A DNA stretch of 63,979 nucleotides, counting the filler, from Basidiobolus ranarum (lineage: Eukaryota): assembly GCA_040143965.1 (NCBI GenBank). It is 4 parts of 4 records of this genome, joined end to end, with 100 filler letters (N's around TTAATTAATTAA, not from the genome) between each part and the next. Parts side by side here need not be neighbours in the genome. Positions count along the whole stretch, not along the records: positions 32,370 to 48,409 come from JASJQH010007231.1; positions 48,510 to 63,979 come from JASJQH010007252.1; 2 more parts are not named here. One strand, given 5' to 3'. This document shows positions 48,001 to 54,000 of the stretch, piece after piece (the stretch's first letter is position 1; the number at the start of each line of letters is the position of its first letter). Made by a program: the position numbers.

Positions 48001-51000
48001 ATCCAAATCATTTGAGGAGAGAAATTCCCTAGATATTTCTTCAATATTTCTTGACCAAATAGCCAACTTGGCCTGCTTTATATGTTCTGTTATTGTCTTT
48101 ATGGCTACCCTAACCTCTTTCTCACTTCCCCCATTCTTCTTTATTTTGCTTTCTAGCACCTTGATTCTTTCACTCTTCTTCAAGAGCAAGTTAAGAATCA
48201 TGAATTGTCATGGCAGTCTCAATTTTGCCACTTTATAAGAAGCTATCTGATGAGCATACTTTGTGTTGACTGATTCATAAGAGCAACACTGAAAGTGCTG
48301 AAATTAGCATTGCCTAAACACCTATATAGTCATATATAGCTTAGTACTTAGTTATCTTATAACTCTCTAAGATATTATCAATTATTCTCAATTGGAATTT
48401 ACTTGGAATNNNNNNNNNNNNNNNNNNNNNNNNNNNNNNNNNNNNNNNNNNNNTTAATTAATTAANNNNNNNNNNNNNNNNNNNNNNNNNNNNNNNNNNN
48501 NNNNNNNNNAGTAGAAACTTGACATTTATAGTTTTGATAGAGTGCAAACAAGCTAATATATAGAGTGTGCTAAGGTGGGACCTAGAAGTATGTGTGCAAT
48601 TTATGGGATATCTAGTACAAGTTTGAAAAATATATAAATGATTATATTGGTATTAATATTAAAGTATTTGGGAGCCTCTTAGAAGTGGTTTGGAGAATTT
48701 AGAGAAATTGATGGTTTTCACTTATTGATTTATTGAGTAGAAAGTTGACATTTGTACCTTGTGAAGATGTAAGCAAGTTAGCACTTAGAGTATGTTAAGA
48801 AAGGTCTCAGAAACATGTGTGCAAAGTTTGGTGCTTCTAGCACAAGTCTGAAAAATCTATATATCTGAGAACATCCAAGTTGGTAAATATATTACAAGTA
48901 AATTCCAATTGAGAATAATGAGCAATATCTTAGTCAGATATAAGATAACTAAATACTAAGCTATATATGACTATATAGGTGCTTAGGCTATGCTAGTTTC
49001 AACAATTCAGACTATGCTGATTTCAATAGAATTGTTGCTAAATTCTAATATTTAGTGTAAAAGCAACAATTTTCTAATACTGAAGTAAATGGCAGGCTGA
49101 TTTTGGTATGCCAAACAGAGAGAGCAACTTATGGTATTAGCTTCATTGTATAATAGAGTAAAAGGGCTAATAGCTCTAGAACTAGAGCCTGTTGCTGGAG
49201 TTGAGGCCAATCAAGCTCATCTCTTTTGAAATGAGCATAGCCTAAGCACCTCTGTAGTCATATATAGCTTAGTATCTAGCTATTTTACACTTCACCAAGA
49301 TATCACCCGCTATTCCAAACCAGAATTTACTTGGAATATTTTTACCAACTAAGAAGCTCTCAGATATATATATTCTTCAGACTTGTGCTAGAATCCCCCA
49401 AACCTTGCCAATATGTTTCTGGGACTTTTTCTAACTGATTCTACATGCTTGGTAGTTTTTATCACAATGAAGTATAAATGTCAACTTTCTATTCAATAAA
49501 TCCATCAGTAAAAATTACCAATTTCTCTTATTCTCCAAACCACTTCCAACAAGTACCCAGAATTTTTCAATAATTGCTATATTTTTTTGCCTCATAATAT
49601 TTACCCCATTAGAAATAGCATCTATATTGTGAGTTGAATAAAAGAAAACTCCAGTCTCTAATAATTCTGATAACTCTTCTTTATTAAGCTCTCCAAAATT
49701 ATTAAACGGGCTATTATTACTAATTATTACTATCTCATCATCTTTTAAAATTAAAGGCTTTGGCTTATTCTTCTCTATTTCTTCCTGAAAATAATTAACT
49801 ATGCTCTCCAAAGAAATCTTACTAATACTATTTTCTATGTTTTCTAATCTTTTAGATGTATTGTCTATCCTGTTATTTATAGACAATGTATTTGATGTAG
49901 GAAATACAGGAATAGAAAGATCTGGAAGTTCTAATGTTAAAGATTGAGACTCTTGCTGTATATCTTTTAGCTGAGAAAGATCAAAATCTTCCAATATAAT
50001 ATTAGATACTTCTTCTTTTTCTGTAGTTGATTTTGAAATAACAAAGAAGAGGGAGATTCATCCTCATCCCATTCTAGTTTAAGATTATATTTCTGATTGT
50101 TTTTAATAATATCCAAAAACTACTCATTCTTATATTGTAAATCTTAAAAAAAATATCTTAAAGAAATATGTCAGTTTTCCAGCATTTGATTTATTTTATA
50201 TTTTTTAATATTGCATTTATTTGTTAATTTGTATTTTTTAATATCTATTAAAATTGGATATTTTTCATCATCATAACCTAACATATTATATTTTATTTTA
50301 ATTTTATTTATTCTTTTTATTTTCCACCTATCAAATATTATATCTTCCCTTTTTATCAAATTTATTCTTAAATATAACAATAAATTGTCAAGACTTTTGT
50401 GATAATTTTCCTCAGATATATAATAAGTTTTCTTTAGTTCAGAAATATAACTTTCAATCATCCAGTTTTCAATATAAGACATTTTTTTTAATAATAAACT
50501 TTTCCTATAAAAATTTATTTTTATATATTCAATAATAATATATATATAGTGAAATAGGAAAAATAATAAGAACACATATATATACATATACATAACTATG
50601 TTTTTTCACGGTAAAAGATATTATTCAAGTCTTATTTCCAGTGGATTGTTAGATATAATAGATAAGAAATCTGATGCATTGGTACAATTTAGATCTGATA
50701 ATGGAAATTATTATTATATGTATTTTGAATCTTGGATTTCCTTTAAAATATGGTATTTTAATATTTCAAAAATAAAAAGAACATTTTCAGAAGTTATATT
50801 TGAACATGAGCAAAAATTCAAGTTAGATATAGATTGTCCTTATAGTTTATGGATTTTGGAGATGATAAATATAAACTATTTATTCCTATTATTCAACTTC
50901 TAAAAGAATTGTTATCAGAAGATATAGAAAGTTACTAACTCACTAAGTTCAACTATGAACATAAATTAGAAGGATTTTATAAACAAAAAGGAGATCAACA

Positions 51001-54000
51001 ATAATAATACAAGTAGATGAATGACTTAATGGAGGTTAGCCTAAAATTGGCCTAATTATCACAAGTATTGACCATTATGTTCAAATATATGTGTTCAATA
51101 ACATCATATTGTCAATAGAGTAAATAAGTATATATCACAAATTTGCAACAATTGGAATATCATGGAAAATTTTTGGAACTTCAATACATAATTAGAATTC
51201 TCCAAATGCCAAAATCTCACCATGGATTTGGACATTTTTTATCAAGTCATTTAGTATTGTATTATATAAATAGAGTACCATTTCAAAACTTCAATATTAA
51301 GTGATAGTAGTCAGACTTAAAATTGAAATTATCCTGAAGGATATCCATTTGATATAATAGAAGGATTTGGAAAATATTAATCAATCCAAATACATCCTAA
51401 TCACATGGGATATTTCGAATTTTGAATGGTAATTAATGCACGAATAATTTTTAATGATATTGATTAAGTGATACAGTAAATATTGGCGATACCAAGGGAT
51501 TACAGGATGAATTTTTTCAGTGTCACAAGTCTGGAGTTAGTAAAGATGGTGGATTAATTAAATGCTTATGATGATTAATTATGATTAATTGGAATTTATT
51601 ATCGTCCGTTATGAATTATATATTACAAATGGCATTAGTAGGTATATGACTATTTTCTTTACCATGCTAATCTTGCCAATACTCCTTTAGGATTGGTTCT
51701 ATTACGGAACTTTCGGAATTCATCTAGTAGGAATATTAACAAGGCACCAACTAAAGGTGCAAACCAGTAACCCACTGGCACTGCACGTGTATTAAATTGT
51801 TGTTGGAAGAATGGTACATGAATCACTAGGACGGCAAAAGATAGTGAAACCACTTGGGCCACTATTAATCCAAGATTCCGTGTAGGCTTCTGAAGCGGAT
51901 TGTGTTGAAAGAATGAAAGGTAGCGTGTCCGTGTGGAGAGTAAATTACCAAATGCTTGGCACATCACTAATGAGATGAACATCACACTTTGTCCACCATA
52001 TGTGAGCTCTTGAAGTTGAGATGCAGTTTTGCCATGGTATCCGGCTTGCCATTTATCGAAGGCGAAGAATAGATCGCTGACCTTCAATCCACCTTGGGTA
52101 GTCATGAAGAAGAAGTAGAGTATATGACCAACGAGGGTTTCGATCATGCCAACCATAAAGTAAGCATGGATAAGAAGTCGCCAATTTACCAAACGATCAT
52201 GTTTTGCATCTCTAGGTTTGCGTTTGAGAAGATCCCGCTCGGGTTTTTCCAATACCAAGCCAATGGCGGGAGGCACATCGGTCAACACACAAATCACTAA
52301 CATTAGGAAAGGACTGAGTGGGAGTGGAAGTCCAAAGAACATATTTGTGAGAACTGGAATCATCTCAGCAAACGATCCAGCGGGTAACATATACAATAAA
52401 CACTTCTTCAGGTTCTCGAAAACGAGACGACCACTCTCCAAGCTTACCAGAATGGAGCTGAAATTGTTGTCTAATAGCACCATATGAGCAGCAGCCACAG
52501 CAACCTCAGATCCTCCACCCATAGCAATACCAATATGTGCACGCTTCAATGCAGGTGCATCGTTGACTCCATCTCCGGTGACACCAACTACAGAACCACG
52601 AGCGCGGAACTCTTCCACAATACGCAACTTCTGTTCAGGAGTGGTGCGTGAAAAAACAATCTCCTCATACTCGAAAATACGATCCCAGTGATTGTCAACA
52701 AAGTTAGGAAGGTCACTACCAGTGAGAAGCAAGCTCACTTTCTTGAAGTCGGATGCGAGAGGAATGTTCGTCCGTCCAGCTTCAATCGATGAGCCAACAC
52801 GGGTTGAGGAATCATCATCAACTGGGGTTACCGCTCGGTAGTCATGTGCATCTGTAAAGACTTCCACACTACATTTACTTGTTATGTCTGCTCCAGTATG
52901 AAGCTCAGGATAAGTAAAGATTCCCACTTGTTTGGCAATAGCAGCTGCTGTAGCACCATGGTCTCCAGTCACCATGAACAACCGAATTCCAGCTCCGCGG
53001 CATACTTGGACTACATTGAGAGTCTCATCTCTTGGCGGATCCACGATTCCTACCAAGCCGAGAATACATAAGCCACTTCTCATTCTATCCACCAAATACT
53101 CATCTTCCCAGTCCACGGGGATTTCTTTCTCTTCTTTCACAACTTTACGACAGATAAGTAAGACTCTTTCACCATTGTTACTCCACTCCTCTTGCTGCTT
53201 CTCCAGGCGACGAATGGACTCGGTATCTAGGGGGGATACTTCACCGGTATGACTCATGATGTGAGTGCATTTGCCGAGTAAAAAGTCTGGGGCACCCTTA
53301 GTGAACAACTCTGGAGCTTTGGGTTCTTCGCCATTGATTGGATTCGCTTGGACCAAGGTTAGCATCCATTTGTTACGTGAGTTGAAAGGAATCTCATGTA
53401 GAATGGAGTATTGTGAATGCAATTGATCGATACCGATTACTTGTTCACTAGCTCTTAAAAGAGCGATATCAGTTGCATCTCCAATCACTGGTTGTTCGTC
53501 GGTGGAGATGTGATTAGAATTCCCCGTTTTGGGTTGGGTAAATTCCGCCCCGTTACACATGCCAGTGACGGTGATAAATGTTTGAATCCCTGCATGTTGA
53601 TTGTGTAAATCGTTACATTCACTAATGGTGAAGCTGCTTCCGTTCATCCAAATATGCTTGGCAATCATTTTGTTTTGGGTCAACGTTCCGGTCTTGTCCG
53701 AGGCCAACACATTCACCGCTCCCAAAGTCTCTACGGTTGACAAATTCTTGACCAAAACCTTATTTTTAGCCATACGACGGGCCACCAAGGTGAGCGTCAA
53801 TGTGATTGCGAAGGGAAGGCCATCTGGTACGAAGGCAACAATCACGCCAATTGTATTCACCAAGACTTCAGAAAATGAGATGAATGTGGGATAAGTTGGT
53901 CGAAGCCAGGCTCCCCATATAATCATGATCAAGACACCCGTGGTGATGGCCATAGAAGCGATGATTCGGACAAACAAGGCGATATCCTTTTGCAACAACG

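What the first reader, a model, noticed from the sequence alone, without database searches (positions are those of the whole stretch)
49561..51020. AT-rich intronless island with a giant-virus-type primase motif: candidate endogenous viral element
Seen: ~1.5 kb far more AT-rich than the flanking genes, with tightly packed, divergent, intronless K/I/N/Y-rich ORFs that are decaying. ORF 50598 contains RTFSEVIFEHEQKFKLDID. Known (recalled, not searched): asfarvirus-like primase-helicases such as ASFV F1055L have a similar F.EV.F...Q.LKFDID AEP motif I, preceded by an aromatic-rich F....F..W segment that is also present here. Inference: this is a fragment of a nucleocytoplasmic large DNA virus, or of a cytoplasmic linear plasmid, integrated in a fungal genome. 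Giant viruses of fungi are known mostly from such relics, and the two neighbouring ORFans may be new viral genes.
Basis: partly seen in the sequence, partly recalled or inferred. Interest (0 to 1): 0.78.

Follow-up and report, generated by a model that had tools for sequence, protein, structure and literature searches.

The report
Giant-virus gene relic in host chromosome
A 1.4-kb, very AT-rich stretch between ordinary cellular genes is the decayed remnant of three neighbouring giant-virus genes, including the front half of a DNA primase, which shows that a large DNA virus once left DNA in this organism's chromosome.

Summary
Window 49572-50929 has 22.3% GC against 38.6% elsewhere. Its open frames are far longer than chance allows: 0 of 2000 shuffles reach 144 codons.

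ORF 50598 is the N-terminal 111 residues of a small archaeo-eukaryotic primase (AEP):
- phmmer against 1.84 billion proteins gave E 2.5e-14.
- It is 90% identical to an intact 238-aa protein, P0025.
- The family profile matches human PrimPol and poxvirus D5.
- A confident model of P0025 (pLDDT 88.6) best matches pithovirus and orpheovirus primases and ASFV F1055L.

Relatives sit beside giant-virus core genes (family B DNA polymerase (PolB), RNA polymerase, D5 helicase) in 11 of 13 loci examined.

The two neighbouring ORFs also have intact counterparts, P0042 and P0044, on a contig of the same recorded length as P0025's. The 103-aa ORF keeps its position and orientation in viral contigs.

The window copy is broken. 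It has three 1-nt homopolymer frameshifts, and the primase ends before motifs II and III. A host repeat cuts the left end.

Verdict: a real, short endogenous giant-virus fragment that cannot prime DNA synthesis. It is a new member of a known kind. The host phylum and read support could not be checked.

The parts
49572..50128 (-). Remnant of a 203-aa viral gene of unknown function (counterpart of P0044). The start codon is at 50128. There is a 1-nt deletion in a T run after codon 4 and a second 1-nt deletion in an A run near 50033. The last 17 codons are missing.
   Evidence: the search for homologous proteins found P0044, E 1.2e-64, 83% identity. tblastn pieces are 50119-50009 and 50042-49572, with 124 of 157 residues identical. 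Frames were read. The only family signal is a sub-threshold coiled-coil hit, Pfam HSBP1 at 19.6-23.4 bits against a cut-off of 28.6.
50171..50482 (-). Intact 103-codon viral ORF of unknown function, plus its stop codon. The mechanical 140-aa ORF starts further upstream, inside the spacer.
   Evidence: 92 of 103 residues are identical to P0042. Homologs lie upstream of and divergent from the primase in L006 (E 1e-15) and L001 (E 5e-6). A family HMM gives weaker hits in the same position and orientation in L015, L012, L019 and L011. The model of P0042 (pLDDT 79.1) resembles uncharacterised pithovirus, marseillevirus and orpheovirus proteins, E 2e-4 to 8e-4.
50483..50597 (.). Divergent intergenic spacer between the 103-aa ORF and the primase. 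Presumed viral promoter region (inferred).
   Evidence: 12.2% GC. Sequence read. No mimivirid-type AAAATTGA motif; the motif itself is recalled, not from a call.
50598..50929 (+). N-terminal 111 of 238 codons of a small AEP primase. It holds the aromatic segment and motif I (D77-I-D79). A 1-nt deletion in a T run at about 50853-50856 shifts the frame. Similarity ends at 50929, before motif II (SxH) and motif III.
   Evidence: phmmer E 2.5e-14. 77 of 86 and 23 of 25 residues are identical to P0025 in two frames. Residues 112-238 of P0025 match nowhere in the window at E <= 1. Frames were read.
49226..49572 (.). Copy of a host dispersed repeat of about 345 bp. It abuts the left end of the relic and replaces the 3' end of the 203-aa gene.
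   Evidence: blastn of the flank against the window finds copies at 48657-49002, 57088-57430, 57585-57928 and 58261-58588, at 68-84% identity. Inverted-repeat pairs are listed.
50930..51658 (.). AT-rich spacer (26.9% GC) between the relic and the 3' end of the P-type ATPase gene (51659-54970, minus strand). Its origin is unknown.
   Evidence: Only a 29-nt self-match at E 0.001 elsewhere in the window. No match to viral-locus ORFs. GC. ATPase domains.

Best explanation
Window 49572-50929 is a short endogenous fragment of a giant virus (Nucleocytoviricota, NCLDV). It is a block of three adjacent viral genes: a 203-aa unknown, a 103-aa unknown, and a divergently transcribed small AEP primase. The block was inserted into the host chromosome and has since been cut at both ends and frameshifted.

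In the parent virus the 238-aa enzyme would make primers for the viral family B DNA polymerase. The two motif I aspartates and the motif III aspartate would hold the metal ions, and the motif II histidine would bind the nucleotide. This is the established AEP mechanism. It is inferred here from conserved residues, not assayed.

The window copy keeps only residues 1-111, which include motif I. It lacks motifs II and III, so it cannot prime. The 103-aa ORF is still open, but that is within what neutral decay allows.

Insertion by non-homologous joining during an infection, followed by trimming through deletion and a host repeat, is inferred and not shown. The source lineage looks closest to pithovirus/orpheovirus-type viruses, but only tentatively.
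For: 1. Homology. phmmer of the 101-aa ORF against 1.84 billion representatives gave 14 hits at E <= 1e-3. Eleven are 99-328-aa proteins matching residues 1-87, with best E 2.5e-14. I dropped the other three (P0006, P0012, P0014) as repetitive multi-stretch hits with unrelated Pfam families.

2. Conserved residues. In the 34-sequence alignment D77, D79, D160 and R171 are invariant, and S126, H128 and Y164 nearly so, in P0025 numbering.

3. Link to known AEPs.
- Family profile against the PDB: human PrimPol E 1.2e-5, covering the motif I-II region and motif III.
- hhalign to the AEP domains of more distant relatives: probability 99.9, E 5.5e-36.
- Those distant AEP domains match PrimPol at E 2.4e-12 and poxvirus D5/E5 AEP at E 9e-8.

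4. Fold. The model is of P0025, not of the window fragment: pLDDT 88.6, pTM 0.86.
- PDB: PrimPol E 5.7e-10, TM 0.66-0.68; then D5/E5, HSV primase and ASFV C962R.
- Viral library: Orpheovirus, Pithovirus and Cedratvirus primases at E 4e-16 to 6e-15, TM 0.69-0.74; ASFV F1055L at rank 11.

5. Viral context. I examined neighbours in 13 of the 36 fetched loci. Eleven carry PolB, an RNA polymerase subunit and/or a D5_N helicase next to the small primase. L001 also has a capping enzyme, MutS-HNH and dUTPase. The two without are L004 and the 3-kb L006.

6. Tree. P0025 nests in a supported clade (97/94) with P0001 (= L006). Its sister clade (96/93) holds P0004 (= L001) and P0016 (= L007).

7. Synteny.
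- Homologs of the 103-aa ORF lie upstream of and divergent from the primase in L006 and L001, and weakly in four more loci.
- An XPG-like nuclease lies directly upstream of the primase in 10 loci.
- All three window ORFs have intact counterparts (79-92% identity over aligned segments), each recorded on a contig of 2290 bp.

8. Foreign and resident. GC is 22.3% against 38.6%. Both ends cut inside genes. The left end is a host repeat with other copies in the window. Cellular genes lie on both sides.
Against: - No other viral gene is in the 64-kb window. 50 ORFs of 95 aa or more gave only cellular Pfam domains. 604 viral-locus ORFs hit only the island, apart from 3 noise-level rows at E 0.005-0.007.
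- The genomic context of the closest relatives (P0025, P0021, P0022) could not be fetched. The viral context therefore comes from relatives at 31-46% identity.
- Scans of IMG/VR viral contigs with P0025 and P0044 found nothing.
- Single-sequence Pfam and PHROGs searches gave no hit for the ORFs. Only 4 of 34 family members touch Pfam AEP_C962R, all below its cut-off.
- All three frameshifts are 1-nt deletions in A or T runs. They could be sequencing errors rather than mutations.
- The lineage assignment rests on the order of fold-search hits, not on a tree with named references.
Confidence: 0.85

Rival explanations
1. The fragment comes from another kind of mobile element that carries an AEP primase, not from a giant virus. 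Candidates are a polinton-like virus or virophage, a linear plasmid, or a transposon.
For: The context of the closest relatives is unknown, because P0025, P0042 and P0044 sit on a contig of only 2290 bp. L003's 17-kb record is classed as having inverted terminal repeats. AEP primases are common in small mobile elements (established knowledge).
Against: Relatives sit next to giant-virus core genes in 11 of 13 loci examined. Two loci lie on contigs of 339 and 382 kb. Both the primase and the 103-aa ORF have their best structural matches in pithovirus, marseillevirus and iridovirus proteins. No long terminal inverted repeats flank the relic. No plasmid match was found.
Confidence: 0.06
2. The island is an assembly artefact: contaminating viral DNA wrongly joined into a host contig.
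For: The composition differs sharply from the flanks. No read data could be examined.
Against: It would take two false joins within 1.4 kb. Both ends cut viral genes part-way. The left join lies exactly at the edge of a host repeat family that has other copies in the window. The copy is broken compared with its intact relatives, which fits residence in a genome.
Confidence: 0.04
3. The ORFs are host genes or pseudogenes, for example a host PrimPol-type gene plus orphan genes, and are not of viral origin.
For: Eukaryotes encode PrimPol, and the family profile matches human PrimPol.
Against: - Identity to PrimPol is only about 15-18% in the fold alignments.
- The nearest relatives are unannotated metagenome proteins linked to viral genes.
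- The FYMINK (AT-coded) residue fraction is 0.51-0.56 in P0025 and P0042, against 0.25-0.26 for host proteins in the window.
- The ORFs have no introns, while the surrounding genes are split into exons.
Confidence: 0.03
4. Part of the relic has been taken into host service. The still-intact 103-aa ORF would be a domesticated gene.
For: It is the only one of the three genes with no frameshift or truncation.
Against: Three indels in about 890 bp of the other two genes predict about 1 indel in 312 bp, so zero is expected about one time in three (my arithmetic). No expression data could be obtained. The ORF keeps its extreme viral composition, 18.1% GC.
Confidence: 0.07

Closest known systems
ASFV F1055L and the giant-virus 'replication origin-binding protein' primase-helicases (AEP domain fused to a UL9-like SF2 helicase)
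   Same: The AEP domain type is the same. F1055L ranks 11th in the viral fold library: E 1.6e-14, TM 0.72, 23% identity. Metagenome relatives of 987-1634 aa carry this AEP followed by Pfam Herpes_ori_bp, in 10 of 17 ORFs scanned. Their consensus around motif I (HEVIF....QKFKLDID) is nearly the window's own. A passage in PMC10516667 says F1055L has an AEP domain and an SF2 helicase domain.
   Different: The window lineage is a stand-alone 238-aa primase with no helicase (P0025), and the window copy is only its first 111 residues. In the tree the small stand-alone forms separate from the fused forms, though with weak support, 82/85.
DNA primases of Pithovirus, Orpheovirus and Cedratvirus
   Same: These are the best structural matches of the P0025 model: E 4e-16 to 6e-15, TM 0.69-0.74, 19-28% identity. 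The 103-aa ORF model also best matches uncharacterised proteins of these viruses and of marseilleviruses.
   Different: Those proteins are 334-570 aa, longer than 238. Relatedness rests on fold-search rank only. No tree with these named sequences was made.
Human PrimPol, and mimivirus gp577 (L537) and gp857 (L794)
   Same: The catalytic core fold and the three motifs are shared. PrimPol scores E 5.7e-10, TM 0.66-0.68, and its motifs I-III align with the family profile. Mimivirus L794 is rank 21 in the viral library. Some family members carry a C-terminal Cys/His cluster, like the three-Cys-plus-His region described for this clade in a passage of PMC6648351.
   Different: Identity is about 15-18%. 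P0025 itself lacks the C-terminal zinc cluster. No activity has been tested.
Giant-virus fossils in fungal genomes: Mycodnaviridae relics in zoosporic fungi, and the 1.5-Mb Asfarviridae-like region of Rhizophagus irregularis
   Same: This is the same phenomenon: viral genes of odd composition and without introns, embedded among host genes. Passages of PMC13533422 describe contigs where a single viral gene sits among fungal genes. The abstract and passages of PMC10640383 describe the Rhizophagus region.
   Different: Here the piece is only 1.4 kb. It carries no hallmark used in those screens (capsid, PolB). It is AT-richer than the host, whereas the Rhizophagus region is GC-richer than its host (36.6% against 27.9%). 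It looks pithovirus-like rather than Imitervirales-, Algavirales- or Asfarviridae-like. The host phylum is not known.

Membership tests
AEP superfamily, NCLDV/herpesvirus-PrimPol clade: descent of the window ORF from a member gene | Significant sequence homology to a family that is itself demonstrably AEP | tested here: met
   Window ORF against the family: E 2.5e-14, 90% identity to P0025. Family against distant AEP domains: hhalign E 5.5e-36. Those against PrimPol E 2.4e-12 and poxvirus D5 AEP E 9e-8.
AEP superfamily, NCLDV/herpesvirus-PrimPol clade | Motif I (DxD/E metal-binding aspartates) | tested here: met
   D77-I-D79 is present in the window ORF and conserved across the family. It aligns with the PrimPol motif I region.
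AEP superfamily, as a working enzyme | Motif II (SxH, nucleotide binding) | tested here: not met
   Absent from the window copy, whose similarity ends at residue 111. Present in the intact relative P0025 as S126 and H128. The window copy is therefore a fragment derived from a member, not a working member.
AEP superfamily, as a working enzyme | Motif III (hDxxhY metal-binding aspartate) | tested here: not met
   Absent from the window copy. Present in P0025 as D160 and Y164, followed by F170 and R171.
AEP superfamily | AEP catalytic fold | tested here: met
   Tested on the model of the intact relative P0025, pLDDT 88.6. The top 10 PDB matches are all human PrimPol, TM 0.65-0.68, followed by D5/E5, HSV primase and ASFV C962R. 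The window fragment itself was not modelled.
Pfam AEP_C962R (PF23162) | Score above the curated cut-off of 23 bits | tested here: not met
   No hit for the window ORF or for P0025. 4 of 34 family members hit it, all below the cut-off, best E 0.0075. Only the distant relative L030 passes, at 23.2 bits.
F1055L-type primase-helicase fusion | AEP domain fused to a UL9-like SF2 helicase in one protein of about 1000 aa | tested here: not met
   P0025 is 238 aa and the nearest relatives are 190-330 aa. The fusion occurs only in distant relatives.
Endogenous element of a giant virus (Nucleocytoviricota) | Relatives of the genes are linked to giant-virus core genes | tested here: met
   11 of 13 loci examined carry PolB, RNA polymerase subunits or a D5_N helicase beside the primase. 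The position of the 103-aa ORF is conserved.
Endogenous element of a giant virus (Nucleocytoviricota) | Flanked by host sequence and compositionally distinct | tested here: met
   GC is 22.3% against 38.6%. A host repeat lies at the left edge. Cellular genes lie on both sides. This holds within the assembly only.
Endogenous element of a giant virus (Nucleocytoviricota) | Junctions confirmed by reads at normal depth | not testable with these tools
Endogenous element of a giant virus (Nucleocytoviricota) | Other hallmark genes (capsid, PolB, A32, RNA polymerase) nearby | tested here: not met
   None in the 64-kb window. The rest of the genome is not held.
Cytoplasmic or mitochondrial linear plasmid | Terminal inverted repeats and a protein-primed family B polymerase | tested here: not met
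   No long inverted repeats flank the relic. No polymerase ORF is in the window. No blastn match among 72,556 plasmid records.

The most novel reading that the evidence does not exclude
The relic shows little decay: no in-frame stop in 404 homologous codons. An independent assembly holds intact versions of all three genes. Together these would mark an undescribed, extremely AT-rich pithovirus/orpheovirus-like giant-virus lineage that infects, or very recently infected, this fungus-like host lineage. That would tie a Pimascovirales-type virus to a host group where none is known.
Probability: 0.25. Interest if true: 0.7.

Novelty: new member of a known kind. Interest (0 to 1): 0.45.

Why it matters
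Giant-virus DNA in host chromosomes is one of the few records of which hosts these viruses infect. For fungi and fungus-like organisms that record is thin and recent (PMC13533422, PMC10640383, PMC9894930; abstracts and passages read).

This relic carries none of the hallmark genes used by standard screens, so such screens would miss it. It points to an AT-rich lineage that looks pithovirus-like rather than like the lineages so far tied to fungi.

It also gives names and context to an unannotated family of small stand-alone giant-virus primases. None of the 33 hits carried a functional name or a precomputed Pfam domain; the few that were named were mostly 'hypothetical protein'. The same applies to a conserved gene block (small unknown gene, XPG-like nuclease, primase) in metagenomic giant-virus contigs.

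As a single 1.4-kb dead fragment its own biological effect is probably nil.

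Tried and rejected
Searches that gave nothing useful
- Pfam and PHROGs on the window ORFs gave no family, apart from sub-threshold HSBP1 and DUF3591 hits on the 159-aa ORF.
- phmmer of the 101-aa ORF alone against the PDB gave only chance-level hits: a lipocalin at E 0.37 and BPSL1038 at E 0.87.
- blastn against plasmid records found no match.
- IMG/VR viral-contig scans with P0025 and P0044 found no relatives. 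A scan with the 103-aa family alignment was not possible, because it has no conserved stretch.
- Earlier findings of this scan held nothing by place, sequence or words.

Capsid search. Only one of the five viral records behind the loci is held, a 17-kb fragment, and it has no match. This says nothing about the others.

The 203-aa gene. Compared with the genes in the same position in L006 and L001, it shows no significant similarity (E 0.079 and 0.30), only a similar coiled-coil stretch. P0044 against the PDB gave only coiled-coil noise.

The 103-aa family. Its profile found nothing in the PDB. Its model has no solved-structure match at Z 5 or more; the best is Z 4.4.

Promoter motif. The mimivirid early-promoter motif AAAATTGA (recalled) is absent from the relic and from L001 and L007.

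Host identity
- The window's proteins are singletons at 90% identity and carry no names.
- Atlas neighbours of the acetyltransferase are Ascomycota or Oomycota clusters, and those of the ATPase are uninformative.
- The phylum remains undetermined.

Readings considered and rejected
- An organellar origin or another genetic code: rejected, because the ORFs read through under the standard code and their relatives are viral.
- Domestication of the 103-aa ORF: not supported, because staying intact is within the neutral expectation.

Full report
**What is there**

The window is about 38% GC. It carries ordinary, exon-split eukaryotic genes: a mitochondrial-type ribosomal protein S7, Sec7/PH, a phytochelatin synthase, PDZ/Nma111-type domains, 3-hydroxyacyl-CoA dehydrogenase, RING/PA, a Pho80-type cyclin, an alcohol-acetyltransferase-like protein and a 1103-aa P-type ATPase.

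Stretch 49953-51009 is the only long run under 22% GC that is not produced by masked N runs. It holds three packed ORFs. The open frames inside it are 162, 144 and 116 codons long. Dinucleotide shuffles give means of 61, 51 and 46, and none of 2000 shuffles reaches 144.

**The primase**

The 101-aa ORF at 50598 has no Pfam, PHROGs or direct PDB hit. An exhaustive phmmer search of 1.84 billion representatives gave 14 hits at E <= 1e-3.
- Eleven are proteins of 99-328 aa that match residues 1-87, with best E 2.5e-14.
- The other three are repetitive proteins with many short stretches and unrelated Pfam families. I dropped them.

The full-length relatives share a QKF(R/K)(L/I)D(I/V)D motif I, an SxH motif II and an (I/V)DxxVYKxxQxFR(L/I)EGxxK motif III. 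Some also have a C-terminal Cys/His cluster.

A word-indexed search with that alignment found 33 proteins. None has a functional name or a precomputed Pfam domain; seven are labelled by a source, mostly 'hypothetical protein'.

One of them, P0025 (238 aa), is 90% identical to the window ORF (77 of 86 residues) and is intact.

In a 34-sequence alignment D77, D79, D160 and R171 are invariant, and S126, H128 and Y164 nearly so. I left out fragments P0011, P0013, P0037 and P0041 and the three repetitive hits.

**Is it an AEP?**

Four lines of evidence say yes.
- The 34-sequence profile matches human PrimPol at E 1.2e-5 in two stretches. One covers the aromatic segment, motif I and motif II. The other covers motif III. 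The smaller 9-sequence profile gave PrimPol at 1e-3 and poxvirus D5 at 2e-3.
- More distant relatives from metagenome loci form an alignment whose profile matches PrimPol at E 2.4e-12 and the poxvirus D5/E5 AEP domain at E 9e-8. It aligns to the small family with hhalign probability 99.9, E 5.5e-36, over 241 columns.
- AlphaFold2 on the family alignment, with P0025 as target, gave pLDDT 88.6 and pTM 0.86.
- Foldseek against the PDB puts human PrimPol in the top ten places (E 5.7e-10, TM 0.65-0.68). Vaccinia D5 and monkeypox E5, the HSV primase and ASFV C962R follow.

Against predicted viral structures the best matches are primases of Orpheovirus, Pithovirus and Cedratvirus (E 4e-16 to 6e-15, TM 0.69-0.74). 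ASFV F1055L is rank 11 (E 1.6e-14, TM 0.72). Marseillevirus and mimivirid 'origin-binding protein' helicases and mimivirus L794 come after it.

Pfam's own AEP_C962R model is touched, below its cut-off, by only 4 of 34 members.

**Is it viral?**

Pattern scans found 5 related loci in IMG/VR viral contigs (21 pattern matches) and 31 in metagenome contigs (291 pattern matches, 32 confirmed). I looked at the neighbours in 13 of these 36 loci.

Eleven of the 13 have PolB, RNA polymerase Rpb1/Rpb2-type subunits and/or a D5_N helicase beside the small primase. L001 also has an mRNA capping enzyme, a MutS-HNH protein and dUTPase. The two without are L004, which lies on a 382-kb viral contig, and L006, which is only 3 kb.

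Of 17 longer primase-bearing ORFs scanned:
- 10 are proteins of 987-1634 aa with a C-terminal Herpes_ori_bp (UL9-like SF2) helicase. A passage of PMC10516667 ascribes this architecture to F1055L.
- 3 touch AEP_C962R. One passes the cut-off at 23.2 bits, and two reach 22.1.
- 4 have no family.

In a 57-row maximum-likelihood tree P0025 sits in a supported clade (97/94) with P0021, P0022, P0001 (= L006) and P0020. The sister clade (96/93) contains P0004 (= L001) and P0016 (= L007). P0025 has a long, compositionally odd branch.

**The neighbours**

*The 103-codon ORF (50482-50174).* It is 89% identical to P0042.

*The ORF at 49515-49994 and the piece upstream of it.* Together they match P0044 (203 aa) at 79-83% identity.

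*One shared contig length.* P0025, P0042 and P0044 are each recorded on one contig of 2290 bp from the same source. I read this as one contig carrying all three genes intact, but I could not fetch it.

*Synteny of the 103-aa ORF.* It has homologs upstream of and divergent from the primase in L006 (E 1e-15) and L001 (E 5e-6). A family HMM finds weak hits in the same place and orientation in L015, L012, L019 and L011. A fifth hit, in L014, looks spurious in the alignment.

*The nuclease.* In relatives an XPG-like nuclease lies between that gene and the primase, or directly upstream of the primase, in 10 loci. The window lineage lacks it.

*Fold of the 103-aa ORF.* A model of P0042 (pLDDT 79.1) has five matches at E <= 1e-3. 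All are uncharacterised proteins of pithoviruses, a marseillevirus and Orpheovirus. No solved structure reaches Z 5.

*The 203-aa gene.* It has no detectable relative beyond P0044.

**State of the window copy**

*Primase.* Residues 1-86 lie at 50598-50855. A 1-nt deletion in a T run follows. Residues 87-111 run to 50929. After that nothing is left, and residues 112-238, which carry motifs II and III, match nowhere in the window.

*The 203-aa gene.* There is a 1-nt deletion in a T run after codon 4 and another in an A run near 50033. The last 17 codons are replaced where a copy of a 345-bp host dispersed repeat begins (49226-49572). That repeat has other copies at 48657-49002 and in 57088-58588.

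*The 103-aa ORF.* It is intact. With three indels in about 890 bp of its neighbours, that is expected about one time in three.

*Caveat.* All three frameshifts are homopolymer deletions and could be sequencing errors. The truncations cannot be.

*Age.* No in-frame stop occurs in 404 homologous codons, although 6.3% of random substitutions would create one. So fewer than roughly 40-50 neutral substitutions are likely to have accumulated (P(0) is 0.08 at 40 and 0.02 at 60). The relic looks young, and it has kept its viral composition.

**What it is not**

- The 64-kb window holds no other viral gene.
- There is no plasmid match and no flanking terminal repeats.
- Misassembly cannot be excluded without reads. 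It would need two false joins that happen to coincide with a host repeat edge.

**Lineage and host**

Both modelled genes point first to pithovirus-, orpheovirus- and marseillevirus-type viruses. This rests on the order of fold-search hits, not on a tree with named references.

The host phylum was not established. The window's proteins are singletons at 90% identity and carry no names. Atlas neighbours are Ascomycota or Oomycota families.

Published work already ties giant viruses to fungi.
- Relics and active infections occur in zoosporic fungi (PMC13533422; abstract and passages read).
- A 1.5-Mb Asfarviridae-like region lies in Rhizophagus (PMC10640383; abstract and passages read).
- Putative Ascomycota-associated viruses have been reported (PMC9894930; passages read).
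- The supplements of these papers were not opened. They might list small primase genes.

**Verdict**

This is a genuine but dead 1.4-kb giant-virus fragment. It is a new member of a known kind. Its main value is as a marker of an unsampled AT-rich virus lineage and of a host association that remains to be named.

Noticed in passing
L015:1514-2392(+), L016:129-1982(-), L019:2689-4296(-): ORFs with the fungal-type HET (heterokaryon incompatibility, PF06985) domain lie next to PolB on three giant-virus-like soil or rhizosphere contigs that also carry the small primase, at E 1.8e-15, 1.3e-9 and 3.4e-16. A full-text search for 'HET domain' together with 'Nucleocytoviricota' found 0 papers. This may indicate gene exchange with filamentous fungi.
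   Followed up: partly
L001:8304-10867; L006:569-2828; also L008, L009, L011, L012, L014, L015, L016, L019: A conserved block recurs in giant-virus-like contigs: a small unknown gene on the minus strand, then an XPG/FEN-like nuclease and the small AEP primase on the plus strand. The window lineage has lost, or never had, the nuclease.
   Followed up: partly
L024, L025, L032 (all from one 70,757-bp metagenome contig): One contig carries three separate genes of about 1030-1050 aa for AEP plus UL9-like helicase fusions. That is an unusual triplication of a replication gene.
   Followed up: no
window 48293-49572 and 57088-58588: A dispersed host repeat family of about 345 bp occurs in nested direct and inverted copies, at 68-89% identity. 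It looks like a MITE/SINE-type element.
   Followed up: partly
window 16109-16208, 32270-32369, 48410-48509: There are three pairs of 44-nt N runs, each pair separated by 12 bases, about 16.1 kb apart. They create false low-GC signals at 15.9-16.2 kb and 48.2-48.7 kb.
   Followed up: no
window 51659-54970 (-): A 1103-aa P-type cation ATPase is encoded as a single uninterrupted ORF at 44-47% GC. The surrounding genes are split into short exons.
   Followed up: no
L003 (17,169-bp IMG/VR record): This record, which carries a small primase next to an RNA polymerase subunit fragment, is classed by IMG/VR as having inverted terminal repeats, with 5% estimated completeness.
   Followed up: no
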